Positions 9,598 to 39,030 of a stretch of 64,000 nucleotides of DNA are shown here, piece after piece. The translations under genes were made by a program, and so were the position numbers. Position 1 is the stretch's first letter. Each line of letters opens with the position of its first letter. The DNA is taken from positions 156,210-220,209 of the forward strand of contig CAWBZB010000004.1 of assembly GCA_963793105.1 (NCBI GenBank). Direction: 5' to 3'. The notes under the pieces are model-generated. The model was given only the letters and a program-made list of their open reading frames with translations, had not been told where the DNA came from and ran no database searches. This stretch comes from an uncultured bacterium. GTDB lineage: Bacteria > Actinomycetota > Actinomycetes > S36-B12.

Positions 9598-9743
9598 GTG
9601 ATCCCTTTCGTCGACCGCCCGCGGGCGGCTCACCGGTCGCCGGAGGGTCCGTGCTCGATTTTCCGGCTACCGGCAAGGGTGAAGCACCGCGCAGCCGTTG
9701 GCAAGTCGAATCGAAGCGACGTCGTATGGTCGAAGCGAGGAAC

Positions 9744-19548: not shown

Positions 19549-21227
19549 TCACGACGATCCCGGCGTTCGCAGAGCCTTCAGGGTGCTCCAGGCCCGACAC
19601 GCAAGCTGCAGATTGAAGTTCACGTCGGGATCGCCGATGGGCAGTCCGGACACGTCGCGGATCCGCTGGAGACGGTACTTCAAGGTGCTGCGATGGATGA
19701 GGAGCGCCTCCGCGGTCGCGTCATACCTCCCCCCGCATTCCAGGTAGCGGTACAACGTCAGCACGAGTTCGGAGTGGCGGCGCTCGTCATACTCGATCAG
19801 GGGGCCGAGCCACTGCGTCACGAACTTCTCGATCTCACGGGAGTCCTCGGCAGATGCGAGAAGCCGGTACACGCCCAGGTCGTCGAACGAGACCACATGG
19901 TGGGCTCCGATCCTGCCGTTGAGCAGGTTCAGGGCCAGCACGGCCTCGCGATGCGAAGTCGGGAAGTCCTCGGGGCCGTGGGTGAGTCCGCCCACGCCGA
20001 TACGGCAGTTGCCGCCCGCGAGCTCGCGGACGACGGTTTCCTGCACGTCCTCCCAGCCGACGTCGCGGTCCGTGAGGAGGACGACGGTGCCGGCGCGCGC
20101 GACCAGCAGCGACCCGAGACCGAAATCCCTGGCCGCGCGCCTGACAGCAGTGAAGAACTGGTCCTCGTCGCGCGTGCGGCCGCGCCCCTCGAAGACGACG
20201 ACGCGATGCGGAAGGTTCAGGTCGTGCTGGAACGCCTCTCCTCGCTGGACGGCGGACTCCCCGCCCGTGCCGGATAGCAGGTCCTCGACGAGATCACGCC
20301 GGACCCGGACTTCGGTGTCGGCGACCGTGCGCTGTCGCGCAAGTTCCATCGAGAGAATGGTGGCCCCGTACTCGAGAGCCGCGAGGTCCTCGTTGCGCGC
20401 CGCCCGCTCGGGGTCGATCAGGGCGATGACGCCCACAGAGTCCGGCCGAGGTGACGCGGCACGCATGACACGTCCGGACTCCCACGTCGACTGTCCCTCA
20501 CGCAGGAGACGCCTGAGCAACTGCTCTCGCCGGGCCGGCGGGTCCTTGGAGAACGTCGGGGGATCACCGGGGCCAGCCCACGCCCGCAGGTTCCCGTAGC
20601 GGTCCTCGATGATCACGGGTAGCCCCGTGACCTCGTGCACGGCGTTGGCGATCCCTTCCATCCCCTCACCCGACGCGGCAGCCCGGGTGAGTCGATCGTG
20701 GATCTCGATTCGCTGGGCTAGGGCGCTGACGGTCGCCTCGAGCTGGGAATTGACCGAGGCGAGCACGGCCGCCGCGTTGCGCTCGATCTGGTGAAGTCGG
20801 CTGTTGCGGATGGCGGTGCCGATCTGCTGGGCGAGGACGCGGAGCAGGAAATGCCCGTCGTTATCGATTCCACGACCCGCGGCCACGACCATGTGCCCCA
20901 GCGAGGTCGAGATGCCGCCGAGGGAGTATGCCCAGGCCCATTGCGACCCAGGGATCGCGACGGCTCCCCCATCCGTCGGCAGATCCAGAATCGCAGGCGG
21001 CGCGGCGATGTCATCGTCACCAGGAGTCCACACGGTGGTCTCCCCGTCATGGGTGAAGACGCCGACCAGCCGGCAGGCCGCGAAGAGGGGGCTGCGCTGG
21101 CCCCGAGCCGGATGATCTGCTTCTCGTCCGAGCTCTCCGTCATCAGCATTGACAGGACGAGCAGCGCGTTGAGCCGCGAGAGCTGACCACGCATCTCGAC
21201 GTCGGTCGCGGCATCCACCGCTGTCAT
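19549..21227 (-). pseudogene. PucR-family transcriptional regulator (GAF-like N-terminus, PucR C-terminal HTH), frameshifted in a G5/C5 run at 21087-21091
   Basis: The C-terminal 494 codons are ORF 19549..21033, with HTH LLIHRSTLKYRLQRIRDVSGL. The true N-terminus MTAVDAATDVEMRGQLSRLNALLVLSMLMTESSDEKQIIRLGASAAPS lies in ORF 20718..21470. Frames join as ...AAP/LFAACRLVGVFTHDGETTVWTPG. Its ATG 21227 overlaps the MEDS stop (ATGA). Confidence 0.8.
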
Positions 21228-21847
21228 GCCGGTTCGGGCACCCGGTTGGCCAGGAACTCGTGCGGCTCGAGGTAGTACGGGTTGTCCAGCAGCGTGCCGC
21301 ACAGCAGGATCTTGGGATGCGTTCTGAGCAAATCGACGACTACTCGACCGTCGAACTGGTCCAGGTCGTATAGACAGACGATTACCTGCGGGTACAGGGG
21401 CAGGAAGGTGTTGAGCTCGGCCTCGTACTCGACGAGATCCTCGACACCCGGCAGCTGCCTGAGCGCCCACGTCATCTCGCCTACGCTGCGCGCGAACTCA
21501 TACCTGCTCTCCTTCATCGAGCCGCCGACGGCTCCATCCCAGAAATCGAGCATCGCCGGCTTGGAGAAGCTGCCGTCCCTGAGGTACGTGTCTTTCGAGC
21601 ACAAGACAGCCAGCTGGTCGTCCGCGTCCGCCGTGACCGGAGCGACTTCGGCCCCGAGCCGGGATCGCAACTCCTCCGGATCTGCCTGATCGAGGACGGC
21701 AATGCACTTGTCACCGCGATCCAGGCCCGCCTGCAGGTACGGGACGAGGATTTCGTCGCGACCAGCCGAGGTCCGGTAAAAGGCGCAGACATGGTCGCCG
21801 ACCGAGACACTCATGCCTGGTGGACCGAAGGACACTGAGTTCTCCAC
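21224..21847 (-). CDS. MEDS-domain (DcmR-type sensory domain) protein
   Basis: ORF 21224..21847. GTG 21847 lies 8 nt after aaggagg. GDHVCAFY...YLQAGLDRGDKCI...VCLYDL pattern typical of MEDS domains. Confidence 0.7.
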   Translation of the reverse strand: MENSVSFGPPGMSVSVGDHVCAFYRTSAGRDEILVPYLQAGLDRGDKCIAVLDQADPEELRSRLGAEVAPVTADADDQLAVLCSKDTYLRDGSFSKPAMLDFWDGAVGGSMKESRYEFARSVGEMTWALRQLPGVEDLVEYEAELNTFLPLYPQVIVCLYDLDQFDGRVVVDLLRTHPKILLCGTLLDNPYYLEPHEFLANRVPEPA

Positions 21848-21936
21848 GAGGTTCGCCTCCTTGCGTGATGTCTGCCGAGCCTAGCTCCGATCAGACCATT
21901 CACATAGCCCTGCTAAGACGATTAGAAGGCATAGCT

Positions 21937-21953
21937 TCGTCCCACAGGGACGA
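21937..21953. promoter_or_regulatory. palindrome GTCCC-ACA-GGGAC upstream of the MEDS-PucR-cysH genes; operator candidate, or alternatively the terminator of the aldehyde dehydrogenase gene
   Basis: tcgtccc-aca-gggacga at 21937-21953. The core matches GTCCY-N3-RGGAC, which is seen twice at 30679-30707. Lies ~90 nt upstream of the MEDS start and 7 nt past the stop at 21960. Confidence 0.4.
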
Positions 21954-21959
21954 GGTTTG

Positions 21960-23391
21960 CTACTTGCCGTAGCGCGCCCAGTGCGCGGAGAAGATCTCGT
22001 CGGGATCCGCCGGACTCGGAGCGATGGTCCGCGAGACCCACGTCAGATTGACGAAGTGCCGAGCGTTCACGTTCTCCGTGGTGATGTTCCCGCCCCAGGT
22101 GCCGCAGCTCAGACTCAGGGTGAACGGGAGGCCGTTTCGCGCACTGCCGGCCCCCTCGTTGAGATTCTGGTTGACCATGACCCTGGCCGTGCGCGTGCCG
22201 AAGGCGAGGGCGTCAACGTGCTCGTCCGAGGCGGTGTGGATCCCGCAGGTATGCCCGAGGCCCTGATAGGCGGTGATGGCGTTCACCAGCCCGACCGCTT
22301 CATCGATGTCGAGCCGTAGCGGTACACCGCCAGGACGACCGAGAGCTTCTCGCCGGAGAATGGGTGAGCCGGGCCGGCACCATCCTCCTCCACCATGAGG
22401 AAGGTTGCGCCATCGGGAAGGGTGATGGCAGCCAGATCGGCGATGTGCTGGGCTGACTTGGCGATGACGTCAAGGGTCGGGATGTGCCCGCCATCGGGCC
22501 ACATCGCGGCCTGGAGCCGGGTCTTCTCGTCGGGCGTGCAGAGGTAGCCTCCCGCCGCCTGCAGGCGAGCCAGCAGGTCTTCGTAGACGGCGTCGGCAAC
22601 GATCAGAGAGTTGTCGGCAAGGCAGCTCGTCGCCAGGTCGAACGTCTTTCCCGCGGCGATCGTGGCTGCCGCGTCCGCTAGATCTGCGGTCTCGTCGACC
22701 ACATGCACCGAGTTCCCCACCCCGACGCCGTAGGCGGGAGTCCCGGAACTGTAGGCGGCCTTCACCATGGCGGCGCCGCCCGTGGCCACGATGAGATCGG
22801 CCTGGCGCATCAACTCCCGGGTCTTGTCGATCGACGGGGAGACGAGGCCCTGGATCAGGTCTTCGGGCGCACCGACCTGCGCGCAGGCGGCGCGCATGTA
22901 CTCGACGGAGAGCTCGCTGGTGCGCCTCGTGCGGGGATGGGGGGCGACGACGATGGCGTTGCGTCCCTTCAGCGCCATGAGCGCTTTCATGGGGGGGGTG
23001 GCATCCGGACCGGTCGTCGGGATGAGGGCCGCGACGACACCGACTGGCTTGGCGATCTTCACGAGGCCGCGCTCGGGATCCTCCTCGACGACGCCCACGG
23101 TGCGGATACTGCGCATGTCGGCCAGCAGCCCGGTCACGCGCCGGTGGATCTTCGTCACCTTGTCGTCGTACGTTCCGAAGCCGCCCTCGTCCACGGCGAG
23201 TCGAGCGAGCGTCTCGGGGTGATCGCCACCCACTATCGCCCACCCGACCGCGGTCACCAGTGCGTCGATCCGCTCCTGGTCCCAGTCGCTGATCGCCTCC
23301 GAGCCGCGCGGGCTCGAGCCACCACGGCGGCGATCTCATCGGCAACGGTCATTTCGGTTGCGGGCGCGGGAGAAGTCTCGGTGCTCGTCAT
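21960..23391 (-). pseudogene. CoA-acylating aldehyde dehydrogenase (EutE/PduP/SucD/SauS-like), two frameshifts
   Basis: Three fragments. ORF 23254..23463 holds the N-terminus MTSTETSPAPATEMTVADEIAAVVARARAA. ORF 22283..23257 holds the core with catalytic Cys in FDLATSCLADNSLIV. ORF 21960..22286 holds the C-terminus NAITAYQGLGHTCGIHT. Junctions read at ~23298-23304 (..ARAA/EAISDWDQERIDALVTAVGW) and ~22311-22316 (..VYRYG/LDIDEAVGLVNAI). Confidence 0.8.
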
Positions 23392-23511
23392 AGCGGACAG
23401 GCTGGGCCCTGATGCCCCGCCACGGCACCGGCCCAATTGGGCGAAGGTCAGCCGGTATCTCACCCTCCGGGGACATGTGCATCCTGCGGGACAGAAGCAA
23501 TCGTTCGACGC

Positions 23512-25091
23512 ATGACCACGACAGGAATGAACGTACGCAACGACGCCGTGAGCAACGCGGAGTGGCGGAGCCTGATCGACCGATTCGAATCGGGAGAACT
23601 CCAGGGCCCGATCCTCAACATCGACGAGGACTCGGACGTCGAGTACGACGCCATCTTCGTCGGCGGTGGAGCCGGTGGAAGATTTGGTTCCGCCTATCTC
23701 AGGGCGCGGGGCGGCCGGCAGCTACCGTCGACCGCTGGCCCTTCCTGGGCGGCTCGTGTCCGCATCAGGCCTGCGTCCCCCACCACCTGTTCTCGGAATC
23801 GGCGCGCGAACTGGACCTCGCGCGCATCCTGTCGGGCCGGCTGTGGTTCCCGGAGTTCGACGAATCGCGTGCGTCGATTCTCGACCTGGTCGAGCTGTTC
23901 AAGTCCGGCCGGAATAGCGCGCATGCCTTCATGAACTACCAGAGCAAGGAACAGCTGGGGATGGAGTACATCCTCAATGCCTCTGCCACGGTCATCGATG
24001 CCCACACCGTCGAGGTGGCCGGGCGCCGGTTCACCGCGAAGAACCTCGTGCTGGGCACTGGCGCGAGCACGGTGCCGCTCGACGTCCCGGGGATCGACCT
24101 CCCGGGAGTATTCGACTACGCGACCCTCATCGAGGATCTCGACTACGACCCGAAGTCGTGCGTGATCATCGGCGGGTCGAAGGTCGCGATCGAGTACGGC
24201 TCCTTCTTCCAGGCAGCCGGCTGCCAGACCACGATCCTCACGCGCAGCCCGCTGATGACGACGAAGAGCCTGCATCATGTGGACGAGGACGTACGGCAGT
24301 ACGTGGTGAGGGGAATGCGCGATCGGGGCATGTCGATCCTGGAGGGCGCCCATCCGATCGCCGTCGTCGGCACCAACCGGGCCACCGGCGTGACCGTGCG
24401 GCTTGCCGACGGGTCCACCGTGGATCTGCCGTGCGACATGGTCTTCATTGGTACGGGCGAGAGGGCGAACTCCGACCACTATGTCGATGTGCTCGGGGTC
24501 GCCGTCGATGATCGCGGGTCCATCGTCGTCGACGATCACATGCGCACGTCCGTCCCGAACGTCTATGCCGTGGGTGACCTCATCGGCCCCCCGATGGAGA
24601 TGTTCAAGGCTCGTAAGTGCGGGATGACGGCGGCTCGGAACATCATGGGCGAGGACTATTCGTTCGATTTCACCGAGTACCCGGATTTCCTGCATTCGAC
24701 CTACGAGGTCACGTGGGTCGGCTTGTCGGAGGCCGAGGCCCGGGCAACGTTCGAAGACGTCATCGTGATCCAGATGCCGCCACCCGGCGTTCCCCACGGA
24801 GACATCCCGCTGCCGTGCGCCGAGGGCACGATGCTCCTCGCGTTCACTCACCCGGAGAAGACCGGGTTCCAGAAGGCGATCTTCGACGCCAAGAGCCGCA
24901 AGCTGGTCGGAATTCACCATGTCGGCTTCGGGGCCAAGGACTCGTTCCAGTATCTGGACTTCCTCATCCACCGAACTGAGGGACTCACCATCGACGAACT
25001 GGCGGAGATGAACGAACTCTTCCTCAACTCGGGCCACTTCATCCAGTTGTCCCGGCTTCGCGCCGGCGCCATGGAGCTCAGCTCGCTGTAG
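23512..25091 (+). pseudogene. xecC: 2-oxopropyl-CoM reductase (carboxylating), 2-KPCC homologue; one frameshift at ~23721-23726
   Basis: N-terminus in ORF 23437..23934: MTTTGMNVRNDAVSNAEW...YDAIFVGGGAGGRFGSAYLRARGGRQL. The rest is in ORF 23412..25091: TVDRWPFLGGSCPHQACVPHHLF ... VPNVYAVGDLIGPPMEMFKARK ... ELFLNSGHFIQLSRLRAG. It is near-collinear with my recollection of Xanthobacter 2-KPCC, including CxxxxC and the Phe...His replacement of the DSOR His-Glu dyad. Confidence 0.85.
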
Positions 25092-26602
25092 CCCCATCGG
25101 TTGCCAGGGACCGGGCCACGTCAAGGAGCGATGCTCTCGAAGCGTTGTTGGCTGCTCGGCGCTCGACGCGCCAGGCGTCCTCGACCGCAACGAGGGCGCG
25201 AAGAGAGGCGATCTCGTCGCGCACCGCCTGTGGGGCGCATCCGCCAGCCTCGCGTCGAGACGCCACGAGCGTGGCGGGGTCGAGAACGGCTGCCACATCG
25301 AAGGTCGAGCCGGGGTCCGGCATGGCAGAGCCAGTGACGATCCGGGCGGCATCGTCGAGCGATGCCGCCGTGATCCCGCTCGCGTCCTCGAGTGAACGCG
25401 CGACGGCACGCCCCACCACGCGGTAGGCGGTCCGGTAGTCCAGGCCGACACGGAGGACCAGTTCGTCCGCCAGATCGGTGGCGGCGATCTGCTCGTCCTG
25501 AGCGGAACGGGACAGTGCTGAGGTGTCGATGGCGATCGTGCGGATCACTGCCGTCGCCAGTTCGACGATGCGACGTGACAGCACCAGGGACGACGAAACC
25601 TCGCCATACGTGTGCAGCCAGTTGTCCGTCTGCGCCGAGGGTGTCCTTGCAGTGGCCATGAGACCGGTGAGACGCCCGATCAGAGTGCTTGCGCCCGAGC
25701 GGATCACGGCCAGCGCGTACGGGTTGCGCTTCTGCGGCATGAGGACGGACGCCCGGCAGAGGGAGGCGTCCAGGGTGACGAAGCCGAAGGCAGGGCTCGC
25801 GAAGATCTGGAGGTCCTCGGCCAGCCGGTCCGCCGTCAGGGCGGCCTGAACGGCCGCGGCGACCACGTCGATCAGCCCGTCCAGATTCCACATTGTGTCG
25901 CGGGTGTTGCGCCCGACCGCAGCGAAGCCGAGGAGCTCGGCCAGGCCGTCGCGGTCCAGCCCGAGGCGCGTGCCGCCCACGCCCCCCGAGCCGGCGGGCG
26001 AGATGTTCGACCGACGAGTAGCACTGGCGCAGGCGGGGCAGGTCGCGGCCCGCCTCCTCGGCGAACGAGGCGATGTAGTGCCCGAAGGTGGAGGGCTGCG
26101 CCGGCTGCAGGTAGGTCATGTCCGCCCAGAGCGCATCGGCGGTCTCGTCGGCGCAGTCGGCCAGCGCCTGCGTGAAGTCCGAGGTGGCCTGCGCCAAGTC
26201 GAGGATCAACTCCCGGGTGGCGATTCGGAAGGCGATGCGGCCGGCCTCACGCCGAGTCCGACCGAGGTGGACCCAGCCGGCCAGGTCGCCGACTCGCCTG
26301 GTGAGCTCCTTCTCTCGGCTGTTGTAGGCGTCACCGAGCATGACGTCATAGGGGAACTCCTCGACCGGGACAGCGCCGAGCTCGAGAAGGGCAGCGAGAA
26401 GCGTCGGGGCGCGCTCAGCCGGCAGCAGCTCCTGTCGGGCGAGCGTGATGACATGTGCGAGGTCGGCGAGCGTGAGGCCGTCGTGCAGCAGCGGGGCGTC
26501 GCTGAGCTCAAGGGCGTATCCGGCGGCCACCATCTCCGGCGCCGGCCCCGACGAGATCCTGCCGTCGGTACCCAGGTAGCCCTCGGGCGTTGGCGCGCTC
26601 AC
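25078..26602 (-). pseudogene. aspartase/fumarase-superfamily lyase (argininosuccinate-lyase-like), CoM-biosynthesis type; one frameshift at ~26007-26012
   Basis: GTG 26602 follows aaggaggtg and overlaps the upstream stop (GTGA). The N-terminal half reads in the frame of ORF 25121..27460 (VSAPTPEGYLGT...TYLQPAQPSTFGHY...QCYSSV). The C-terminal half is ORF 25078..25980 (NISPAGSGGVGGTRLGLDR...SVLMPQKRNPYAL). Confidence 0.8.
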
Positions 26603-27578
26603 AAGCCACCTCCTTGTGCGAACAGCGTAGGGGCCCCGCCAGTGACGAGGAAGACTGTCGGCCCGCGCTGAGCTCCCGTCCGGGCCTGCGCCAGCAAGGC
26701 TGCCATGGCCTTGGCCCCGAACACGGGGTCGAGGATGACCGCCTCCCTGCCGGCGACGAGATCCGCAGCAGAACGGCCCTCGTCCGAGGCGATGCCGTAC
26801 CCGGGACCGATCCAGCCGTCGACCACCTCCACCGCGGTCCGCGGCGGGGCCTGGATCCCGAGCAGGGCAGCCGTCCCTGAGGCGAGGTCGTAGACCCGGG
26901 TGCGGCACTCCGCGACGGGTCGGCTCACGGTGACGCCGACGACACGGGACAGCATGTCGGCGCCCACGGCCGCGACGAGCCCTGCCTGCGTGCCGCAGGA
27001 CCCGGTTCCGAGCCATACCGTGGGTTTCTCGATCCGCCACCTCGCGACACTGGGCGTCCAGCTCCGTGGCGGCGGCAAAGTAGCCGAGGCTGCCGCGGGC
27101 GGTCGCCCCCCCTCGGGGGAGCACGAGGGGGCGTCGACCCTGCGCACGAAGGCGATCAGCGGTCTCCTCGATCAGCTGGTCGACCGACGCACGGTCCTTC
27201 GTTCCGGTCCACCTGATGCGGGCGGCGGTCCACTCGTGCAGTAGCAGGTTGCCGCGCGCCGCCTCGGGTGCGCTCCCGTACAAGCAGAGCTCCCGACTCC
27301 AGGCCGCATCGGCGGGCCGCCAGCGCCGCGAGCAGGGCCCAGTTCGACTGCGGCCCCGAGCCCGTGACGAGGACATCGCAGCCGTCCTCCATCGCCGCGC
27401 CGAGCAGGAACTCCAATGCTCGGACCTTGTTGCCGCCGAGACCCACGGCGGTGAGGTCATCGCGCTTGAGCCAGATCGGGATCCCGGCGGCCGCCGAGAG
27501 CCGGGGCGCCTCCTGCAGAGGCGTCGGGAACAGGCCCAACGTCACCCGCGGGATCCGATCCAGGACGCCGTCAGGCAT
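26599..27578 (-). pseudogene. PLP-dependent enzyme of the ACC-deaminase/D-cysteine-desulfhydrase family; two frameshifts
   Basis: Fragment 1 (frame of ORF 27156..27980): MPDGVLDRIPRVTLGLFPTPLQ...WLKRDDLTAVGLGGNKVRALEFLL, with the PLP Lys. Fragment 2 (frame of ORF 25121..27460): ELCLYGSAPEAARGNLLLHEW...GGATARGSLGYFAAATELDAQ. Fragment 3 (ORF 26599..27147): IEKPTVWLGTGSCGTQAGL...VFLVTGGAPTLF. Junctions at ~27292-27294 (extra g in a G-run) and ~27040-27050. Confidence 0.8.
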
Positions 27579-28912
27579 GGTCGGGATCGAGAACGCTGTC
27601 AATGAAACGAGAAATAGATCCCAAGGCGTTCCGCGGATCCAGCAGCCTGTCGATCTCCTCGTCGTCGAGGTCCGCCAGGCGAGCGTCTGCGCGAAGTGCG
27701 GAACGAAGGTCGACGTCAGCCTCGCGACCGGCGAGCGCTGCCTCGTACACGATGCGGTGCGCGGTGTGTTTCCCCACTCGATCGGCCAGTGCGCGCATGA
27801 CCGGCTCGGACATGACGTAGCCGCGTTGGGCTTCGAGGTTGCGGCGCATCCGCTCCGCGTCGACCTCGAGGCCGTCGAGGATCCTGACCGCGGCCGCGAC
27901 GCTGACGCCTGCGTAGAGGCATGCCTCGGGAAGCAGGACCCACTCGGACTTCCAGGATCGCCCGTCGCGCTCGTGGCCATGGATCATCGCCTGTGTGGCG
28001 AGATCAGCATCGGCGCGAACGAAACGCGCCAGGCTGCCGACATGCTCGGACAGCTCGGGATTGCGCTTGTGGGGCATCGTGATGCTGCCCACCGTGCCTG
28101 GAGTCAGCGGCTCGCGCAGCTCCCCGATCTCGGACCGCTGGAGCTCGTAGACCTCGTCTCCGATCTTGGCGACCGTGGCCGTGATCATCGCGAGCAGGCT
28201 GACGAACTCGGCGAGGCCGTCACGTGCGGTGAGCCACGGGATCAGCGGACGCCCAGGCCGAAGCCGCCGCGCGAACGAGGCGAGCATGGGTTCGGCTCGA
28301 TCACCCCAGAACTCCATGGATCCCAGCCCGCCGCCCAGTTCGACGAGCTCACGCCGCGGACGGCCCTGCTCCAGCCGTTCGAGGTGCCGGTCGATCTCAG
28401 CGGTCCAGACGGCCGTCTTGAAGCCGAACGTGATGGGCAGGCCGGGCTGACCGTGCGTGCGTCCACACATGATGGTGTCGCGGTGCACCCGCGTGAGGTC
28501 CGCGGCCGCGGCCCGCGCCCGGCGAAGGTCTCGTTGATGATGTCGCGACCCTGCGCATGGCCAGCGCGGACCAGGTGTCGGTGAGGTCCTGAACTGTGGC
28601 ACCGTAGTGACCCACTCGCGGGCCTCCTCCGGAGTCGCGCTCGAACAGCCGGATGAGCCCGAGGGTCGAGTGTCCGGTCATGCGGGTCAGCTCGCCGACC
28701 TCGTTCGGGTCCGGCTGCCAGGCCTGGATCGTGCTCCGGATGGCCCCAGCGGCCGGGGCGGGAACGAGCCCAACCTCAGCCTGCGCCTCGGCGAGTGTCG
28801 CAAGGGATCCGAGCCAGGCGCTCAGTCGACCCTCGTCGGTGAACATCGCGTGGATCTCCGGCGTGGACCAGAGATGGCCGTAGATGGCGGAGTCGACGAG
28901 GTGGGCGCTCAT
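27571..28912 (-). pseudogene. second aspartase/fumarase-superfamily lyase (adenylosuccinate-lyase/carboxymuconate-cycloisomerase-like); at least one frameshift at ~28523-28550
   Basis: N-terminus MSAHLVDSAIYGHLWSTPEIHAMF...GATVQDLTDTWSALAMRRV is in ORF 28397..29119. The rest is in ORF 27571..28602: RARAAAADLTRVHRDTIMCGRTHGQPGLPITFGFK ... GSITMPHKRNPELSE. ATG 28912 overlaps the upstream stop (ATGA). Confidence 0.8.
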
Positions 28913-29837
28913 CTGCGGGCAGCGGTCCCGATGCCCGCAGGTTCCACGACGGGCCCGACCCCCGTCAGCAGCCGGAGGGCCAACCTGACCTCGTCGAGGG
29001 TCGACCCCCACGGAACGACGGCACTGTCTCCGTCGCGCTCGACGCCACGTTCGAGCAGGCAGCACTTGGTCAGCACCAGCGTGCCATGCTCGATCTCCGC
29101 TGCTCGGCGGTTCGGGCACAGGTCCACCTGAGGCGGCTGGTCGCCGTAGAAGTGTCGGTGGAACTGCAACGCAGCGCTCGCACCCGATCAGCGTCCAGTC
29201 CTCGCGGCGCTCAGGTCGGGTGTCGAGGAAGGAGACCTCGCCGGGCAGACCACGCCTGAGCCGCGGCAGGGAAGCAGGTAGCCCGCGGCAGGGTGGTCCC
29301 GTGCCATGAGACGTATGTCCACGGCGTCGAGCACGAGATCTATCGGCGGCAGCTCGTCATCGAATTCGAGGGCCTGCCTTGCCATCTCAAGCAGCTTGGC
29401 CGGTTCCGGCGGGACCACCTCGGTGACGACGATGCGCACGGGCAACGGCCGCCAGATGACGTTGACGTGCTCGTACCTGCCTTTGACCGCATACGCATCG
29501 ACATCGTCACGGCCGAGCGCCCGGCCGCGGCCGCCAGGGCGGTTGCGTTGCCGACGTCGGTGCTCGCGTCCTCGATCCATGCCGTGCGATCCGGTGCCGC
29601 GAGAACACGTGCCTCCGTGACCGGCGAGAAGAGCGGCTCGAAGGACTCCTTGAGCACTGCCACGAGGGCGTGGTCGTCGCCGTTGGCGAGGAGCAGCCAC
29701 TCAGTGCGCCGGTAGACCTCGCGGCCGATCAGGTACTCAAGGATCGCCGACTCGTCAGCCAAGGGGATCTCGACCTCCTGCATCGACAGGCCGCGGTAGG
29801 GGCGAGTGATGCTGTTGGGAGGCGGGGTCGGGATCAC
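28909..29837 (-). pseudogene. unrecognised Cys-rich protein embedded in the CoM biosynthesis operon; about three frame disruptions including an in-frame TGA at 29188-29190
   Basis: Fragments are ORF 29340..29837 (GTG start, MIPTPPPN...EYLIGREVYRRTEWLLLANGDDHALVAV...), ORF 29188..29700 (...VDAYAVKGRYEHVNVIWRPLPVRIVVTEVVPPEPAKLLEMARQALEFDDELPPIDLVLDAV...) and ORF 28909..29169 (FHRHFYGDQPPQVDLCPNRRAAEIEHGTLVLTKCCLLERG...). A high-GC3 alternative frame, LPGEVSFLDTRPERREDWTLIGCERC, bridges the last two. The stop overlaps the next ATG (ATGA). Confidence 0.55.
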
Positions 29838-29850
29838 TCGTCAGATCCTG

Positions 29851-30627
29851 TCACGTGAGGGTGGCGAGTCGGGCCACGGAGGCCGTGTCGGCACGCAGGC
29901 CCAGGCGCAGCGTCTCGAGGGGCAGCACCTCGTCCGGAGGGATGTTCCCGAGATTCACCTCGGGCCCGATCGTGCGCACGAACCAGGCCTGCTGGGCCTT
30001 GTGGGGCGCCTCGAAGATGATGCGATCGACAGGAATCCGACTGGTGAGCGTGTCGATGAGCGTGTCACGTACCGCTCCGTCCCCGAGGTAGATGCCGACG
30101 TTGCCGCTCTCGCGGCCCTCGGCGATCACCCACTGAGCACCCGCCTGCAGATCGGACTCCATCTCGGCGAGCCACTCCGCGGGAACCACAGGAGTGGCGG
30201 CATCCTTCGAGCCCACTTCAGCGGCGACCACGAAGTCCTCGCTGAGCGTGCGGATCAGCTCCTCCTTGCGGGCGGCATCAAGGGCGCCGAGACCGTTGGA
30301 CACCTCCACGGCGGTGATGCCACTGGCCAGGGCCCAGTCGCGCAGCTCCCCGATCCGGCCCTGCGCCGCCGCGATCTCGAGCAGGGTGCCCCCGAGGCTC
30401 ACCAGCACGCCGGCCTCGCGATACGCCGTCACGCGTTCGAACAGGCGAGGATCGACATAGCCGATACCCCACCCGATCTTGACGATGTCGATGAGCCCCG
30501 CCGTGCTCTCAAGGTGGTCCCGCGTGGAAGCCAACCCCAGGCCCTTGTCCAGCACATGCGTGAGTCCCCTGGTCCGGGGCTTGGACTGGCGGGGTGGCAG
30601 CTCGAAGGTACGTCGGTGGGCCCACAT
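29851..30627 (-). CDS. comA: phosphosulfolactate synthase (ComA family; PEP + sulfite), first step of CoM biosynthesis
   Basis: ORF 29851..30627, intact. ATG follows aaggaga. THVLDKGLG...IDIVKIGWGIGYV...VSLGGTLLE...VEVSNG pattern of the ComA (PF02679) family. Confidence 0.85.
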   Translation of the reverse strand: MWAHRRTFELPPRQSKPRTRGLTHVLDKGLGLASTRDHLESTAGLIDIVKIGWGIGYVDPRLFERVTAYREAGVLVSLGGTLLEIAAAQGRIGELRDWALASGITAVEVSNGLGALDAARKEELIRTLSEDFVVAAEVGSKDAATPVVPAEWLAEMESDLQAGAQWVIAEGRESGNVGIYLGDGAVRDTLIDTLTSRIPVDRIIFEAPHKAQQAWFVRTIGPEVNLGNIPPDEVLPLETLRLGLRADTASVARLATLT

Positions 30628-30678
30628 GGTCTCCTTGCGCTGACGGCGGATCGTGCGAGGACGACGCTAGGGCGGGTT

Positions 30679-30707
30679 GTCCTGTGAGGACTCCGTCCTC
30701 TGAGGAC
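30679..30707. promoter_or_regulatory. two tandem perfect palindromes GTCCT-N3-AGGAC (putative operators) in the divergent comA / reductase-operon promoter
   Basis: gtcctgtgaggac at 30679-30691 and gtcctctgaggac at 30695-30707, with a 16-bp repeat period. They sit in the 163-bp divergent intergenic region 30628-30790. Confidence 0.55.
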
Positions 30708-30790
30708 TGACAATGGACCTTACTTAGCACCTTCAGGTCATGTGGCTGGCGCGGCTCCGCGCCTAGGTTCCCCGATGACAAGGAGGAACA

Positions 30791-32128
30791 GTGGCGGACA
30801 GGCTGGTCGTGGTGGGTGGTGGCGCGGCCGGTATGTCCGCGGCGTCGGCGGCCCGCCGAACGGATCCCGCCCGTGAGATCACGGTTCTGGAGTCCGGACC
30901 CTTCCCGTCCTACGGGGTCTGCGGCATCCCCTACTACATCAGCGGGGTCGTTCCCGATCCGATGGCGCTGGTCTCGCATCCCGCCGAGGAGTTCCGGGAC
31001 CGCCGGCGCATCGACCTGAGACTGGAGACGTCGATCGCGTCCATCGACCTCACAGGGCAGGTGGTGACCACCGCGGCTGGGGAGCCGCTCGGATTCGACA
31101 CCCTGGTCCTCGCGCTCGGAGCCCGACCGATCGTGCCGCCCATCCCCCGGGTCGATCATCCGCGGGTCGTGACCATCAGACGCCTGGACGATGCGATCGC
31201 GCTGCGGGGAATCCTGGGAGACGTGCGTCGTGCGGTCGTGATCGGAGCTGGCTACGTGGGGCTCGAGATGGCCGAGTCGCTCTGCGCGGCCGGCATACAG
31301 GTGACCGTGGCCGATCGCCTGCCCCGGGTCATGTCGACCCTTGACGTCGAGGTCGCCGAGATCGTCGAAGAAGAGGTGCGTCGGCACGCCGAACTGATGC
31401 TTTCCAGTTCCCTGATTGCTGTTCACGACCGTGGCGAGGGTCTGACCGTCGAGTTCGCGGATCGATCCGTCGACGCCGACCTCGTCGTCCTCGCACTCGG
31501 TGTACAGCCGCAGACCGACCTCGTCCGCGGGCAGGTGGAGATGACACCCGCCGGAGCGATCCTCGTGAATCGGACGATGAGCACCTCCGTGCCTGGAGTC
31601 TTCGCCGCTGGCGACTGTGTCGCGCTCGAGCACCGGGTCCTGAGGGCACCGGCGTACGTTCCTCTCGGTCCGGCGGCGAACAAGACGGGCCGGGTGGCGG
31701 GCACGGTTGCCGCCGGTGGCTCGGCGACGTTCGGCGGAATCGTGGGCACCGCGGTCGCGAAGGTGTTCGACCTCACGGTCGCGCACACGGGGCTGACGCT
31801 CGCCGATGCGCGCGCGGCCGGCCTGTCGGCCATGGCGACGGACGTGACGGCCAAGTCGCGAGCCAAGTACTACCCGGGGACCGAGCCCGTCCGGGTGCGA
31901 CTTGTGCACACGGAGGCCGGGCGGGTCCTCGGTGCGCAGATGGTCGGCCGCGATGGAGTCGCCCAGCGGATCGACGTGATCGCAACGGCCCTGCACGGCG
32001 AGATGACCATCGATGACATCGCTGCGCTGGATCTCGCCTACGCCCCCCCGTTCTCCCCCGTGTACGACCCCATCACCCAGGCCGCGTCCGCCGCTCAGTG
32101 GGCCATGGCCAAGGCCGGAGCCACATGA
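30791..32128 (+). CDS. CoA-disulfide-reductase/NADH-oxidase-family flavoprotein with a single redox Cys
   Basis: ORF 30791..32128. GTG follows aaggagga. VVVGGGAAG FAD motif, SYGVCGIPYY active-site Cys motif (CoADR/Npx type), second Rossmann VVIGAGYVGLE. Confidence 0.8.
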   Translation: MADRLVVVGGGAAGMSAASAARRTDPAREITVLESGPFPSYGVCGIPYYISGVVPDPMALVSHPAEEFRDRRRIDLRLETSIASIDLTGQVVTTAAGEPLGFDTLVLALGARPIVPPIPRVDHPRVVTIRRLDDAIALRGILGDVRRAVVIGAGYVGLEMAESLCAAGIQVTVADRLPRVMSTLDVEVAEIVEEEVRRHAELMLSSSLIAVHDRGEGLTVEFADRSVDADLVVLALGVQPQTDLVRGQVEMTPAGAILVNRTMSTSVPGVFAAGDCVALEHRVLRAPAYVPLGPAANKTGRVAGTVAAGGSATFGGIVGTAVAKVFDLTVAHTGLTLADARAAGLSAMATDVTAKSRAKYYPGTEPVRVRLVHTEAGRVLGAQMVGRDGVAQRIDVIATALHGEMTIDDIAALDLAYAPPFSPVYDPITQAASAAQWAMAKAGAT

Positions 32129-32847
32129 ACCGAGTTGCGATCGTCACGGGCGCCGGCAGCGGCATCGGCCGCGCGAGCAGCCTGCGACTGCAGAAAGACG
32201 GCATGACCGTGATCTCCCTCGACATCGACGTCGACGCTGCCGCGGAGGTGTCGCCTCACGCCTTGGCGCTGGACGTCTCCGATGCCGCACAGGTGGCCGA
32301 CGTCATGGCCGAGGTCCTCCACCGGTGGCCGCGCATCGATGTCCTCGTGAACAACGCGGGGATCACCGGGTCCGCGCAGGCGACAACGGCGCACGTCACG
32401 CCGATTGAGGAGTTCGACCGGGTCATGGCGGTGAACGTCCGCGGACCGTTCCTCTGCTCTCGTGCGGTGCTGGCGTCGATGATCGACGCGGGTGGCGGCC
32501 ACATCATCACGATTGCCTCGGCCGCGGGGATCGTCGCCTTCCCGGGTCGCTGCGCCTACACGACGTCCAAGGGCGCAGCCGTGCAGCTCGCGCGGTCGAT
32601 CGCCGTGGACTACGGCCGTATGGGCATCCGCTCCAACGCGATCTGCCCGGGGATGGTCGAGACCCCGATGACGCAGTGGCGTCTCGACCAGCCGGATCTG
32701 CGCGATCGCACCGAGAGCCAGATCCCCATGGGCCGGGTCGCCAGCCCCGACGAGATCGCCGACGTCGTCTCCGTCCTTGCATCAGGCCGAATGGGGTACG
32801 CCAACGGCGCCGCCCTGGTCATTGACGGCGGCTGGACCGCCTGGTGA
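32125..32847 (+). CDS. short-chain dehydrogenase/reductase, 2-hydroxypropyl-CoM dehydrogenase-like
   Basis: In ORF 32098..32847. ATG 32125 overlaps the upstream stop (ATGA). Begins MNRVAIVTGAGSGIG. NNAG motif and catalytic YTTSK. Confidence 0.75.
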   Translation: MNRVAIVTGAGSGIGRASSLRLQKDGMTVISLDIDVDAAAEVSPHALALDVSDAAQVADVMAEVLHRWPRIDVLVNNAGITGSAQATTAHVTPIEEFDRVMAVNVRGPFLCSRAVLASMIDAGGGHIITIASAAGIVAFPGRCAYTTSKGAAVQLARSIAVDYGRMGIRSNAICPGMVETPMTQWRLDQPDLRDRTESQIPMGRVASPDEIADVVSVLASGRMGYANGAALVIDGGWTAW

Positions 32848-32873
32848 CCACCACTCCAACGAAGGGAACCCCC

Positions 32874-33647
32874 ATGGCAGGCAGGCTCGAAGGCAAAGTC
32901 GCAATGATCACTGGAGCAGGATCCGGGATCGGCCGCGCGACCGCGGAACTCTTCGCACAGGAGGGAGCAGCCGTCGGGGTGCTCGACATCCGCGCCGACG
33001 CTGCCGGTGAGGTCGCCGCCGCAATCAGCGCCGCGGGCGGGCGGGCGATCGGCCTCGGGGCCGACGTGACCAAGGACGACCAGGTGCGGGCCGCTGGGAA
33101 CGAGGTGATCGCGACGTTCGGGGACATCTCCGTGCTGTACAACAACGCGGGGATCGGCAGCACCGGGGCAGTCGACGTCGCCGAGGAGGAGGACTGGGAT
33201 CGCTGCTTCGACATCAATGTCAAGGGCACCTTCCTGTGCTCCCGGGCGGTCGTGCCATCGATGCTGGCCGCCGGCGGAGGCTCGATCATCAACCAGGGCT
33301 CGGTGGCCGCCCTGGTGGGCGTCGCGAACTTCGCCGCGTACTGCGCCGCCAAGGGCGCCGTGGTTGCGCTCACCCGCTCGATGTCCGTCGACCTCGCCCC
33401 TCGTGGCATTCGCGTCAACGCGATCGCTCCGGGAACCGTCTACACGCCGCTGATGGAGCCGATGCTCACCGCTCGAGGCGGCGGCGACCTCGAGAAGGGT
33501 TTGGCGATGACCGTCGCCAAGTACCCGATCGGCCGACTCGGAAACCCTGAGGACATCGCGGCGGCGGCGCTCTTCCTGGCCAGCGACGAGGCAGCATTCG
33601 TGACCGGAGCGGTCCTCACGGCCGACGGCGGCATGACGACTCAGTAG
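32874..33647 (+). CDS. second short-chain dehydrogenase/reductase, 2-hydroxypropyl-CoM dehydrogenase-like paralogue
   Basis: In ORF 32844..33647. ATG 32874 follows aaggga and gives MAGRLEGKVAMITGAGSGIG. The alternative GTG 32844 overlaps the upstream stop. NNAG motif and catalytic YCAAK. Confidence 0.75.
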   Translation: MAGRLEGKVAMITGAGSGIGRATAELFAQEGAAVGVLDIRADAAGEVAAAISAAGGRAIGLGADVTKDDQVRAAGNEVIATFGDISVLYNNAGIGSTGAVDVAEEEDWDRCFDINVKGTFLCSRAVVPSMLAAGGGSIINQGSVAALVGVANFAAYCAAKGAVVALTRSMSVDLAPRGIRVNAIAPGTVYTPLMEPMLTARGGGDLEKGLAMTVAKYPIGRLGNPEDIAAAALFLASDEAAFVTGAVLTADGGMTTQ

Positions 33648-33657
33648 GGAGTACCCC

Positions 33658-34569
33658 ATGTTCCTCGACCCCGACAAGCGCGTCGACCTCGCGGCGGCGG
33701 CCGGCCATGTCCGCGACGGTGCCATCGTCGCCCTCGGCGGAGGACTCTCCGCCAGGCTGCCGATGGCCCTCGTGCGCGAGATGATCCGTCAAGGCCGACG
33801 CGACCTCCACGTCGTCGGCTCCGCCCACGGCATCGACGTCGACATGCTCATCGGTGCGGGCGCGATCGCGATCTGCGAGGAGAGCTACGTAGGCTTCGAG
33901 CAGGACTTCGGACTGGCGCCCGCGTACCGGCGGGCGGCGAGTGCCGGCACGATCACGCTCCGGGAGAGCTGCTGCGTCACAATCCTCACCCAGCTGAGGG
34001 CCGCGGAGATGGGCCTGCCGTTCCTCCCGGTGAGAGGCATCATGGGCACGGACATGAGGCGCCTTCACCCTGAATACGCACAGACCACCTGTCCCTTCAC
34101 CGGGGAGGTCCTCGTCGCTGTACCACCGCTGGCTCCCGACGTCGCACTCCTGCACGCGCCGATGGGCGACATGCACGGCAACCTGCACCTCGAGCAGCCC
34201 TACGTGCTCGACGAGAGGTTCGCGGGCGCGTCCCGGGCCGTGGTGGCCACAGTCGACCGGATCGTGTCCGCGGACACGCTGGCCGAGGCCGGGGTCACCA
34301 TCCCGGGCTACCTGGTCCAGGCGGTCGCGGAGGTTCCGTACGGGGCCCATCCGGCATCCTGCTATCCCGGCTATGCCTACGATCGCGAGCATGTGGGGGC
34401 GTACGTGGCAGCCGCCAGCAGCGACGAGTCGATCGGCGAGTACCTGCGCGAGTGGGTACTCCTGCCTGATGGCGAGGTCGGATACCGGGCGAAGGTCGGC
34501 GAGGCGAGTCTCGCCCGCATCGCCGGCTGGTCGGAGTCCATCAACGCATGGAAGGGGCTCTTCGCATGA
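33658..34569 (+). CDS. CoA-transferase subunit A (glutaconate-CoA-transferase GctA-like)
   Basis: ORF 33658..34569. ATG follows agggag. DGAIVALGGGLSARLPMALVREMIRQG...HVVGSAHG pattern of family I CoA-transferase alpha subunits. Confidence 0.75.
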   Translation: MFLDPDKRVDLAAAAGHVRDGAIVALGGGLSARLPMALVREMIRQGRRDLHVVGSAHGIDVDMLIGAGAIAICEESYVGFEQDFGLAPAYRRAASAGTITLRESCCVTILTQLRAAEMGLPFLPVRGIMGTDMRRLHPEYAQTTCPFTGEVLVAVPPLAPDVALLHAPMGDMHGNLHLEQPYVLDERFAGASRAVVATVDRIVSADTLAEAGVTIPGYLVQAVAEVPYGAHPASCYPGYAYDREHVGAYVAAASSDESIGEYLREWVLLPDGEVGYRAKVGEASLARIAGWSESINAWKGLFA

Positions 34570-35396
34570 CGTACACGCTGGACGAGTGGTTCGTCGTCGC
34601 GCTCTCGCGCACGATCCGCGACAGGGAGTCGGTCTTCCATGGGTTCGGCAGTCCGTGCGCCCAAGTGGCGATGCACGTGGCGAAGCGGACGCACGCTCGG
34701 GACATGCTGCTCATCGAGGGAGCGATGTACGCCCTCAACCCGGATCCCCCGTTCATCCCTCCAACGGGGAACGATGCGAGCCTGAAGCGGGGCGCTGCCT
34801 ACAGCATGCGTTTCGAGGAGTTCTTCGATGCCGCCATCCGAGGGGACATCGACCGGATGTTCCTGTCCGGCGGCCAGATCGACGCCTACGGCAACACCAA
34901 CGTGACAGTCATCGGGCCGCTCGAGCGCCCCAAGGTCAAGCTCGGTGGCGGAGGCGGCGGATGCAACATCTCGGCGACCATCCGCCGACTCACGTTGTGG
35001 ACCACCCGGCACCGGTCGGGTCGCACCCTGGTGGATGCCTGCGACTTCATCACAGACATCGGGCACCGGACGCCGGCCGGAACACGAGCCGAGCTCGGCT
35101 ATACCGGCGGCGGACCGCAGTGGCTGGTCACAGAGCTCGGCGTGTTCGACTACGACGCCGATGGTCGCGCGCGCCTGCTGCAGGTGTTCCCCGACGTGAC
35201 CGTCGACCTGATCAGGTCCGTGACGGGCTTCGACTTCACCGTGGTGGGGGATCTCCGCACGGTGCCGCCGCCTAGCGATGCCGAGCTTGCCGTGGTCCGC
35301 AGCATCGATCCACTCGGCGTGCGCCGGGGCGAGTTCGACGCGGGCGAGCTGGCCCGCACGTTCGAGCATGCGCACGGGGCCACCTGCGGCTGCTGA
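34566..35396 (+). CDS. CoA-transferase subunit B (GctB-like)
   Basis: In ORF 34548..35396. ATG 34566 overlaps the subunit A stop (ATGA). Begins MTYTLDEWFVVALSR. FLSGGQIDAYGNTN motif typical of beta subunits. Confidence 0.75.
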   Translation: MTYTLDEWFVVALSRTIRDRESVFHGFGSPCAQVAMHVAKRTHARDMLLIEGAMYALNPDPPFIPPTGNDASLKRGAAYSMRFEEFFDAAIRGDIDRMFLSGGQIDAYGNTNVTVIGPLERPKVKLGGGGGGCNISATIRRLTLWTTRHRSGRTLVDACDFITDIGHRTPAGTRAELGYTGGGPQWLVTELGVFDYDADGRARLLQVFPDVTVDLIRSVTGFDFTVVGDLRTVPPPSDAELAVVRSIDPLGVRRGEFDAGELARTFEHAHGATCGC

Positions 35397-35397
35397 G

Positions 35398-37479: not shown

Positions 37480-37633
37480 CCTCGTCCGCTGCTGTCAGCG
37501 AAACCACACATTTTCACCCTGCCGGGTCGGGGCTTGTCGCCACTTCTGGCCTTCGAGGGCGAGGCAGCCACGCCCGGACTGCACATACGTTTCTTGGACC
37601 ACGTTCCCGGAGTGGATCCCCTAAGGAGTCTCT

Positions 37634-38737: not shown

Positions 38738-38757
38738 TCGCAACGGCATCACCGTTT

Positions 38758-38799
38758 CGGCTGCGGCCCGAGGGACGTGTTCCCCTCGGGCCGCAGCCG
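38758..38799 (+). terminator. hairpin terminator after etnE
   Basis: cggctgcggcccgaggg (38758-38774), loop acgtgttc, ccctcgggccgcagccg (38783-38799). Perfect 17-bp stem followed by ttcctctttgc. Confidence 0.65.
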
Positions 38800-38993: not shown

Positions 38994-39030
38994 CGACTGG
39001 GCTCCACCCCCGCGGGGTGGAGCCCAGTCG
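38994..39030 (-). terminator. hairpin terminator after nrdJ
   Basis: cgactgggctccacccc / ggggtggagcccagtcg: perfect 17-bp stem with a 3-nt loop, 46 nt past the nrdJ stop at 39076. Confidence 0.55.

What the first reader, a model, noticed from the sequence alone, without database searches (positions are those of the whole stretch)
19549..29837. Frame disruptions are heavily concentrated in one half of the CoM island
Reading the nucleotides, I find about 11 frame breaks in 7 consecutive genes:
- PucR regulator: 21087-21091.
- Acylating ALDH: ~22311-22316 and ~23298-23304.
- 2-KPCC: ~23721-23726.
- Lyase 1: ~26007-26012.
- PLP enzyme: ~27040-27050 and ~27292-27294.
- Lyase 2: ~28523-28550.
- Cys-rich ORF: ~29163-29175, ~29247-29252 and ~29518-29524.

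All are 1-nt indels, and several sit in short homopolymers. For comparison:
- the adjacent 8-kb operon at 30791-38737 has none;
- comA and the MEDS gene are intact;
- the remaining ~55 kb show only 4 (near 9240, at 44951, at ~45430-45490 and at ~60133-60140).

The gene-to-gene start/stop overlaps (ATGA at 28909-28912, GTGA at 26599-26602, an 8-nt overlap at 27571-27578) are still intact, which implies a recently functional operon.

Either CoM biosynthesis, 2-KPCC and their regulator are undergoing pseudogenisation while the transferase/SDR/CoA module is retained, or this stretch had locally poor consensus quality.
Basis: seen in the sequence. Interest (0 to 1): 0.7.

Follow-up and report, generated by a model that had tools for sequence, protein, structure and literature searches.

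The report
Consensus-error tract in CoM gene island
The frame breaks are really in the sequence and really crowded into one ~10-kb stretch, but they almost certainly come from a locally bad long-read assembly consensus, not from bacterial genes decaying.

Summary
Against intact short-read contigs of the same collinear island (L003, L005) and a near-identical long-read contig (L002), the window has 17 private single-base indels (18 nt) between 21085 and 30606. They fall in eight consecutive genes. One is a +1 in codon 8 of comA, hidden by a chance ATG. There are none in coding sequence at 18.9-21.08 kb or 30.6-38.8 kb.

The pseudogenisation reading is not supported:
- Removing only those indels restores every gene to the exact length of its ortholog, with no internal stop.
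- dN/dS against L003 (0.06-0.17) equals that between two intact contigs, gene by gene.
- At 29.0-30.7 kb there are 4 private indels against only 5 substitutions.
- Seven events sit within 390 nt, including a compensating pair 13 nt apart.
- The events avoid all 13 homopolymers of 5 or more bases.
- The same contig also has 1-nt frameshifts in lexA and two other chromosomal genes.
- The source is a 1.15-Mb contig of an uncultured actinobacterium. Sibling contigs carry their own private indels and error bursts.

Verdict: assembly artefact (~0.85). Why it is local cannot be settled without reads. Low interest.

The parts
21085..30606 (.). Tract holding all 17 window-private single-base indels (11 to 12 deletions, 6 insertions). 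The estimated true extent is about 10.7 kb.
   Evidence: 4-way alignment of the window with L002, L003 and L005. L002 agrees in length with the short-read contigs at every site.
19549..21227 (-). PucR-type (GGDEF_2 + HTH_30) regulator gene, with a -1 at 21085.
   Evidence: The ortholog is 556-559 aa and intact in L003, L005, L088 and L089.
21224..21847 (-). MEDS-domain gene, intact (207 aa).
21960..23391 (-). Aldehyde dehydrogenase gene, with -1 at ~22313 and -1 at ~23301.
   Evidence: It is 477 aa once corrected.
23512..25091 (+). 2-ketopropyl-CoM carboxylase/oxidoreductase-like gene (2-KPCC), with -1 at ~23724.
   Evidence: It is 526 aa once corrected, and 96% identical to the intact P0178.
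25078..26602 (-). Argininosuccinate-lyase-type lyase (XcbC-like, 507 aa), with +1 at ~26007.
   Evidence: The XcbC naming is by homology class from PMC9457059 and by synteny with pXAUT01.
26599..27578 (-). PLP-dependent enzyme (XcbE-like, 325 aa), with +1 at ~27036 and +1 at ~27294.
27571..28912 (-). Adenylosuccinate-lyase-type lyase (XcbD-like, 448 aa). It has a -1 at 28249 and a +1 at 28262 that compensate each other, then -1 at 28536, 28548, 28609, 28633 and 28635.
28909..29837 (-). DUF7714 Cys-rich protein (XcbA-like position, 309 aa), with +1 at 29172, -1 at 29250 and -1 at 29518.
   Evidence: It is 47% identical to the stretch just upstream of xcbB on pXAUT01.
29851..30625 (-). comA/xcbB phosphosulfolactate synthase. 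A +1 at 30606 lies in codon 8. The true GTG start is at 30625, and an out-of-frame ATG at 30627 keeps a 258-aa ORF open.
30791..38737 (+). Adjacent operon with no window-private indel in coding sequence: FAD oxidoreductase, two SDRs, CoA-transferase A and B, CoA ligase, and an EaCoMT-like Meth_synt_2 gene.
44540..45248 (+). lexA, with a +1 at ~44953-44957 that splits the HTH domain from the S24 peptidase domain. This is a background error outside the tract.
8873..9600 (-). DUF4397 two-domain secreted protein, with a frame change at ~9240. This is a background error.
59078..60206 (-). GT4 glycosyltransferase, with a probable +1 near 60137 in the N-terminal codons.
   Evidence: It is supported by L011 (protein level) and L010 (nucleotide level).

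Best explanation
The frame disruptions are consensus (base-calling or polishing) errors in a long-read metagenome-assembled genome. They are concentrated in one ~10-kb stretch where the consensus was locally poor. The organism most likely carries an intact, functional island: bacterial CoM biosynthesis genes (xcbA-E-like), 2-KPCC, ALDH and the MEDS/PucR regulators. What is shown: the indels are private to this assembly, and the underlying sequence behaves as functional coding DNA. What is inferred: the cause is technical. The reason for the localisation is not resolved. Candidates are an unpolished ~10-kb chunk, a local drop in coverage, or cross-mapping of reads from a second island variant or copy.
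For: 1. All 17 events are private to the window. At each site the near-identical long-read contig L002 and the short-read contigs L003 and L005 agree with one another in length.

2. Correcting only those indels gives ORFs of 257, 309, 448, 325, 507, 526 and 477 aa (and 207 aa for the intact MEDS). These are exactly the ortholog lengths, with no internal stop, and all invariant DUF7714 residues are kept.

3. NG86 dN/dS between the window and L003 matches that between L003 and L005 for every 'broken' gene:
- DUF7714: 0.064 against 0.067.
- 2-KPCC: 0.056 against 0.064.
- ALDH: 0.074 against 0.071.
- PucR: 0.071 against 0.057.

4. At 29.0-30.7 kb the window and L002 differ by 5 substitutions but by 4 window-private indels. 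Across the five genes from the ASL-type lyase to comA, 75 of the window-L002 differences are synonymous and 37 nonsynonymous.

5. Seven events lie within 390 nt, including a -1/+1 pair 13 nt apart.

6. The events are random with respect to homopolymers. They avoid all 13 runs of 5 or more bases, including G8 and C7.

7. The same contig has 1-nt frameshifts in lexA, a DUF4397 gene and a GT4 gene.

8. The source contig is 1,151,606 nt, from an uncultured actinobacterium. The nearest GTDB genome is a Microflora Danica MAG. That catalogue was built with Flye plus one round of Medaka, and its authors inspected it for Nanopore-associated errors (PMC12313526).

9. Sibling long-read contigs show the same behaviour:
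- L002 has its own private indels and a burst of more than 115 insertions at 34.9-37.9 kb.
- L090 has 3 private indels against the 99.6%-identical, intact L089.

10. All short-read contigs of the island have every gene intact.
Against: - No reads were available, so no direct evidence on depth or per-site support exists.
- The sequencing platform of the window's source is inferred, not known.
- The exact frame-corrected alleles were not found in any public short-read assembly. Only ComA matched, and that match was to L002.
- The nearest intact short-read references are only about 83% identical at nucleotide level.
- Nothing in the sequence explains why the errors stop at 21.08 and 30.6 kb. There is no repeat in the window, and the edges do not match the identity blocks shared with L002.
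- 1-nt events are also the commonest natural indel class, so event size alone is weak evidence.
Confidence: 0.85

Rival explanations
1. Genuine, very recent pseudogenisation. The lineage stopped needing CoM biosynthesis, 2-KPCC and their regulator, and fixed many 1-nt indels in those genes while keeping the transferase/SDR/CoA module.
For: The breaks hit eight consecutive, functionally linked genes and spare the neighbouring operon. Island variants recombine and vary between strains, so selection on parts of the island could differ between lineages.
Against: - There is no rise in dN/dS.
- There are no nonsense mutations, larger deletions or IS insertions.
- The indel-to-substitution ratio is about 1:1 at 29-30.7 kb. 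In natural neutral DNA substitutions greatly outnumber indels (my own knowledge of bacterial mutation-accumulation and pseudogene studies).
- The events avoid long homopolymers, where slippage would act.
- There is a compensating pair 13 nt apart and a cluster of 7 events in 390 nt.
- Essential-type genes elsewhere on the contig are hit in the same way.
- The tract edges cut through PucR and through comA codon 8 rather than following functional units.
Confidence: 0.07
2. A mixture: most events are consensus errors, but one or a few are real inactivating mutations in this population.
For: This cannot be excluded site by site. The sibling contig L090 differs from L089 by 77 substitutions and 3 indels, a ratio compatible with some real variation.
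Against: No individual site stands out. All events share the same character, and the selection signal is that of functional genes.
Confidence: 0.05
3. One error-prone repair or recombination episode laid down a ~10-kb tract of single-base indels. An example would be SOS or translesion synthesis during import of island DNA, possibly linked to a genuinely frameshifted lexA.
For: The events are confined to a contiguous tract of about 10 kb, with both insertions and deletions and few substitutions. lexA in the same window carries a +1.
Against: No bacterial process is known to me that gives about 2 indels per kb with almost no substitutions. The lexA break is itself most simply an error. The same kind of isolated 1-nt error occurs elsewhere on the contig. 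Sibling assemblies show technical error bursts.
Confidence: 0.02
4. Programmed recoding (ribosomal frameshifting or transcriptional slippage) at these sites.
For: None beyond the presence of frame changes.
Against: There are 17 sites with no shared slippery motif, mostly outside homopolymers. None is conserved in any ortholog.
Confidence: 0.01

Closest known systems
Indel errors in long-read (Nanopore or PacBio CLR) assemblies and MAGs that truncate predicted proteins
   Same: The events are single-base indels private to one assembly. They split otherwise conserved ORFs, also occur in housekeeping genes of the same contig, and are absent from short-read assemblies of the same locus. Sibling contigs show their own private errors and bursts. 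Medaka polishing to reduce indel errors, and inspection of the catalogue for Nanopore-associated errors, are described for the nearest genome catalogue (PMC12313526). PMC9262707 notes that short-read polishing has been needed to correct homopolymer-derived indels (abstract).
   Different: The errors here are not homopolymer-centred. They are about 25-fold denser in one ~10-kb tract than in the flanks. This points to a local failure of coverage or polishing rather than the uniform, context-driven error usually described.
Pseudogene-rich loci in decaying bacterial genomes (for example Mycobacterium leprae, or recent host-restricted pathogens)
   Same: Several adjacent genes of one pathway carry frameshifts.
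   Different: Decaying loci show raised dN/dS, nonsense codons, deletions of many sizes, IS insertions, and far more substitutions than indels (my own knowledge). None of that is seen here.
Bacterial coenzyme M biosynthesis cluster xcbABCDE with epoxide-carboxylation genes (Xanthobacter autotrophicus Py2 pXAUT01; Nocardioides JS614 pNOCA01)
   Same: The gene content matches: PSL synthase, an ASL-type and an ADSL-type lyase, a PLP enzyme, a DUF7714/XcbA-position protein, 2-KPCC, two SDRs and an EaCoMT-like gene (PMC9457059).
   Different: This concerns the genes, not the finding itself. The island is chromosomal, in an uncultured actinobacterium. The gene order is that of JS614-type actinobacteria, with ALDH, MEDS/PucR and CoA-transferase/ligase genes added. 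No alkene monooxygenase is present in the window.

Membership tests
Long-read consensus-error tract (assembly artefact) | The indels are private to the one assembly and absent from independent assemblies of the same or closely related sequence. | tested here: met
   All 17 events are private to the window. L002, L003 and L005 agree with one another at every site. All short-read loci have intact genes.
Long-read consensus-error tract (assembly artefact) | Removing the indels restores full-length conserved ORFs without further changes. | tested here: met
   all eight genes regain the exact ortholog length with one terminal stop each. Gene boundaries then coincide with the conserved ATGA, GTGA and 8-nt overlaps.
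Long-read consensus-error tract (assembly artefact) | The same kind of error occurs in unrelated or housekeeping genes of the same contig. | tested here: met
   lexA, DUF4397 and GT4 are affected.
Long-read consensus-error tract (assembly artefact) | The assembly derives from error-prone long reads. | tested here: inconclusive
   The source is a 1.15-Mb contig of an uncultured organism in NCBI and ENA. The nearest genome is a Microflora Danica Nanopore MAG. L002 has Flye-style contig naming. The platform of the source itself is not known.
Long-read consensus-error tract (assembly artefact) | Reads do not support the indels, or depth or quality drops over the tract. | not testable with these tools
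   No read data are accessible.
Genuine pseudogene cluster | Relaxed purifying selection (raised dN/dS) in the disrupted genes. | tested here: not met
   dN/dS between the window and L003 is 0.06-0.17, equal to that between the intact pair L003 and L005, gene by gene.
Genuine pseudogene cluster | Other lesion types are present (nonsense codons, larger deletions, insertions of mobile DNA). | tested here: not met
   None is present. Only 1-nt events occur, with one possible 2-nt event.
Genuine pseudogene cluster | Substitutions outnumber indels, as in neutral bacterial DNA. | tested here: not met
   There are 4 private indels against 5 substitutions at 29.0-30.7 kb. There are 14 private indels at 25.5-30.7 kb, where 75 of 112 coding differences from L002 are synonymous.
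Programmed frameshifting | A conserved frameshift site with a slippery motif is shared by orthologs. | tested here: not met
   No ortholog has any of the frame changes, and the sites share no motif.
Bacterial CoM biosynthesis cluster (xcbA-E) | PSL synthase, an ASL-type lyase, an ADSL-type lyase, a PLP enzyme and an XcbA-type protein are clustered together. | tested here: met
   Supported by tblastn with JS614 proteins, Pfam families of the orthologs, synteny with pXAUT01, and gene roles from PMC9457059. Enzyme activities were not tested.

The most novel reading that the evidence does not exclude
The indels are real and record a single localised burst of frameshift mutagenesis. An example would be an error-prone repair or recombination tract of about 10 kb, conceivably in a lineage with a truly inactivated lexA. 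Such a burst would have knocked out CoM biosynthesis, 2-KPCC and their regulator in one step, too recently for substitutions to accumulate.
Probability: 0.03. Interest if true: 0.75.

Novelty: not a real feature. Interest (0 to 1): 0.1.

Why it matters
As biology it most likely does not matter, because the island is probably intact and functional. It matters as a data-quality warning:
- Public annotation of this genome will report eight fragmented or mis-started genes. One example is the deposited ComA protein, which begins MWAHRRTF (P0177).
- A metabolic reconstruction would wrongly score CoM biosynthesis and 2-KPCC as lost.
- It shows that errors in long-read MAGs can be strongly local, about 25-fold denser over ~10 kb. 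Genome-wide quality metrics do not protect individual loci.

If the indels were real, the tract would be an unusual signature of localised frameshift mutagenesis.

Tried and rejected
- A chimeric query of three concatenated corrected proteins for the search for homologous proteins returned only fusion-length proteins and was wasted.
- Exact look-ups of frame-corrected proteins found only ComA, and that match was to L002. No identical intact allele could be shown in short-read data.
- Exact look-ups of window flank proteins (NrdR, HflX) and of the window's comA ORF found no accessible contigs.
- The Logan contig with an identical FAD oxidoreductase and intact neighbouring genes has no retrievable DNA.
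- The best intact relatives found through 2-KPCC (L088-L091) are still only about 82% identical at nucleotide level.
- A self-comparison of the window found no repeat that could explain the tract.
- Composition shows no break at the tract edges.
- I considered whether the indels sit next to window-L002 mismatches, as mixing of haplotypes would predict. I only inspected this by eye, and it was not convincing.
- The claimed break at 45430-45490 could not be tested, because the two GDSL-lipase paralogs do not align.
- A literature search for the accession numbers found nothing.


Full report
**What the region is**

The window is about 70% G+C. It is a piece of chromosome of an uncultured actinobacterium. 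The flanks encode nrdJ, nrdR, lexA, hflX, a DinG-like helicase, formate-THF ligase, formate dehydrogenase subunits, dapF and miaA. The nearest genome among the GTDB species representatives is a Microflora Danica MAG, with HflX 86% identical.

Between about 16.6 and 38.8 kb lies an island collinear with the CoM gene clusters of Nocardioides JS614 pNOCA01. It is also collinear with many metagenome contigs. On the minus strand, in order of increasing coordinate, it carries:
- PAPS reductase
- a PucR-type regulator
- a MEDS gene
- ALDH
- an ASL-type lyase (507 aa)
- a PLP enzyme (325 aa)
- an ADSL-type lyase (448 aa)
- DUF7714 (309 aa)
- ComA (257 aa)

The 2-KPCC-like gene lies on the plus strand between ALDH and the ASL-type lyase. 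A divergent plus-strand operon follows: FAD oxidoreductase, two SDRs, CoA-transferase A and B, CoA ligase, and an EaCoMT-like gene.

By homology class and position, the five genes from comA to the ASL-type lyase correspond to xcbB, xcbA, xcbD, xcbE and xcbC of the bacterial CoM pathway (PMC9457059). The DUF7714 protein is 47% identical to the stretch immediately upstream of xcbB on Xanthobacter pXAUT01.

**Checking the observation**

tblastn with JS614 proteins shows each of seven genes split over two or three frames.

An exact-protein look-up with the intact FAD oxidoreductase gave two related contigs:
- L002 is a 22-kb ENA metagenome contig. It is 100% identical to the window over 29-34 kb, about 99% over 25.5-27.5 kb and about 85% over 20.8-25 kb.
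- A Logan contig carries intact neighbouring genes, but its DNA could not be retrieved.

A homology search with the corrected DUF7714 protein led to L003-L007. These are short-read contigs with the whole island collinear and every gene intact. They are about 83% identical to the window in nucleotides.

A 4-way alignment of the window, L002, L003 and L005 gives 17 window-private events:
- Deletions: 21085, 22313, 23301, 23724, 28249, 28536, 28548, 28609, 28633/28635, 29250 and 29518.
- Insertions: 26007, 27036, 27294, 28262, 29172 and 30606.

At every one of these sites L002 sides with the short-read contigs. No window-private event falls in coding sequence at 18.9-21.08 kb or 30.6-38.8 kb.

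The event at 30606 is new. It lies in codon 8 of comA, whose true GTG start is at 30625. A fortuitous ATG at 30627 keeps an ORF open, so the gene only looks intact. The deposited protein P0177 carries the resulting false N-terminus.

Outside the island:
- lexA is split at ~44953 by a +1, while four relatives have one ORF.
- A DUF4397 gene changes frame at ~9240.
- A GT4 gene probably has a +1 near 60137.
- The claimed break at 45430-45490 could not be tested.

The concentration is not chance. Within the 19.9 kb that had equal detection power, p = 3.7e-6. Across the window, p = 2.8e-11.

**What it is**

Five lines of evidence argue that the sequence under the indels is functional coding DNA and that the indels are not evolutionary events.

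1. Deleting the six extra bases and filling the missing ones restores all eight genes. They regain exactly the ortholog lengths (257, 309, 448, 325, 507, 526, 477 and 556 aa), each with a single terminal stop. The corrected DUF7714 keeps every residue that is invariant among its relatives.

2. Nei-Gojobori dN/dS between the window and L003 is 0.06-0.17 in the 'broken' genes. Gene by gene, this is indistinguishable from the value between the two intact contigs L003 and L005.

3. The balance of indels and substitutions is wrong for natural decay.
   - At 29.0-30.7 kb the window and L002 differ by 5 substitutions but 4 window-private indels.
   - Across the five genes from the ASL-type lyase to comA (25.1-30.6 kb), 75 of the window-L002 differences are synonymous and 37 nonsynonymous. 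Most of that divergence therefore arose under selection.
   - From my own knowledge of bacterial mutation-accumulation and pseudogene studies, substitutions outnumber indels several-fold in neutral DNA.

4. The spatial pattern is that of noise.
   - Seven events lie in 390 nt, including a -1/+1 pair 13 nt apart.
   - The events are random with respect to homopolymers. None falls within the 13 runs of 5 or more bases in the tract, including a G8 and a C7. That is where replication slippage would be expected.

5. The provenance fits.
   - The window's comA ORF sits on a 1,151,606-nt contig held by NCBI and ENA.
   - L002 has its own private 1-nt indels at other positions, and a burst of more than 115 private insertions at 34.9-37.9 kb.
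   - L090 (GCA_942491545.1) has three private indels that split PucR, ALDH and an SDR. Its 99.6%-identical sibling L089 has all of these intact.

Local bursts of consensus error are therefore a demonstrated property of contigs of this kind.

**What remains open**

The localisation is unexplained. The window has no internal repeat. It has no composition break at the edges. The tract edges do not coincide with the blocks of identity shared with L002.

The estimated tract length is about 10.7 kb. That is close to one polishing chunk of a common Nanopore polisher. This is my own knowledge and is speculative. Other candidates are a local coverage drop, or cross-mapping of reads from a second island variant or copy. 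JS614 carries the CoM cluster twice. None of these can be tested without reads.

I also could not find the window's exact corrected alleles in short-read data. The case therefore rests on evolutionary and pattern arguments rather than on direct resequencing.

**Comparison and verdict**

The finding matches the known problem of indel errors in long-read assemblies fragmenting ORFs. Two features are atypical: it is not homopolymer-centred, and it is strongly local. It fails every tested criterion for a genuine pseudogene cluster, namely relaxed selection, other lesion types and an excess of substitutions. It also fails the criteria for programmed frameshifting.

I put the artefact explanation at about 0.85, genuine recent pseudogenisation at about 0.07, a mixture at about 0.05, and a real localised mutagenesis tract at 0.02-0.03. 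Interest is low. The practical value is as a warning for annotation and metabolic inference on this genome.

Noticed in passing
window 44540-45248 (+): lexA carries a +1 insertion at ~44953-44957 that separates the DNA-binding domain from the S24 peptidase domain. Four related genomes have a single ORF. It is most likely another consensus error. If real, it would mean a constitutive SOS response.
   Followed up: partly
window 29851-30627 (-): comA looks intact only because an out-of-frame ATG at 30627 rescues the ORF after a +1 at 30606. The deposited public protein (P0177, 258 aa) starts MWAHRRTF where relatives have (V/M)GPPTYL.
   Followed up: yes
window 20798-38704 versus L002: Identity between the window and L002 is mosaic: 100% at 29-34 kb and 38.0-38.7 kb, about 99% at 25.5-27.5 kb, about 96% at 27.5-29 kb and about 85% at 20.8-25 kb. 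This implies recent recombination or exchange between island variants in related populations.
   Followed up: partly
window ~38750-39076: This is the right edge of the island. The L002 contig ends at 38704, and synteny with L003 and L005 ends at ~38800. Those contigs continue into other genes, while the window continues into nrdJ. The island therefore sits in different genomic contexts.
   Followed up: partly
L002, aligned to window 34900-37900: L002 has a burst of more than 115 private insertions over about 3 kb of the CoA-transferase and CoA-ligase genes. Elsewhere it has about 1 private indel per kb. This is a clear local consensus failure in a sibling contig.
   Followed up: yes
L090 (GCA_942491545.1 CALOBO010000008.1) versus L089: These two assemblies of the same island are 99.6% identical. 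L090 has three private 1-nt indels that split PucR, ALDH and an SDR, all of which are intact in L089.
   Followed up: partly
window 28909-29837 (-); L092 6001-6842: The DUF7714 'Cys-rich ORF' is 47% identical to the unannotated stretch just upstream of xcbB on Xanthobacter Py2 pXAUT01, which is the XcbA position. The family is large: 1888 hits at E<1e-20, mostly from uncultured Actinomycetota.
   Followed up: partly
window 16600-38800: The island has CoM biosynthesis, 2-KPCC, two SDRs, an EaCoMT-like gene, CoA-transferase and ligase, ALDH and an F420-dependent LLM oxidoreductase. No alkene or soluble di-iron monooxygenase genes were seen anywhere in the window, so the substrate of this CoM pathway is unclear.
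   Followed up: no
window 8873-9600 (-) and 59078-60206 (-): There are isolated single-base frame changes in a two-domain DUF4397 secreted protein (~9240) and in the first ~25 codons of a GT4 glycosyltransferase (~60137). These give the background error rate of the contig, about 1 per 15 kb.
   Followed up: partly
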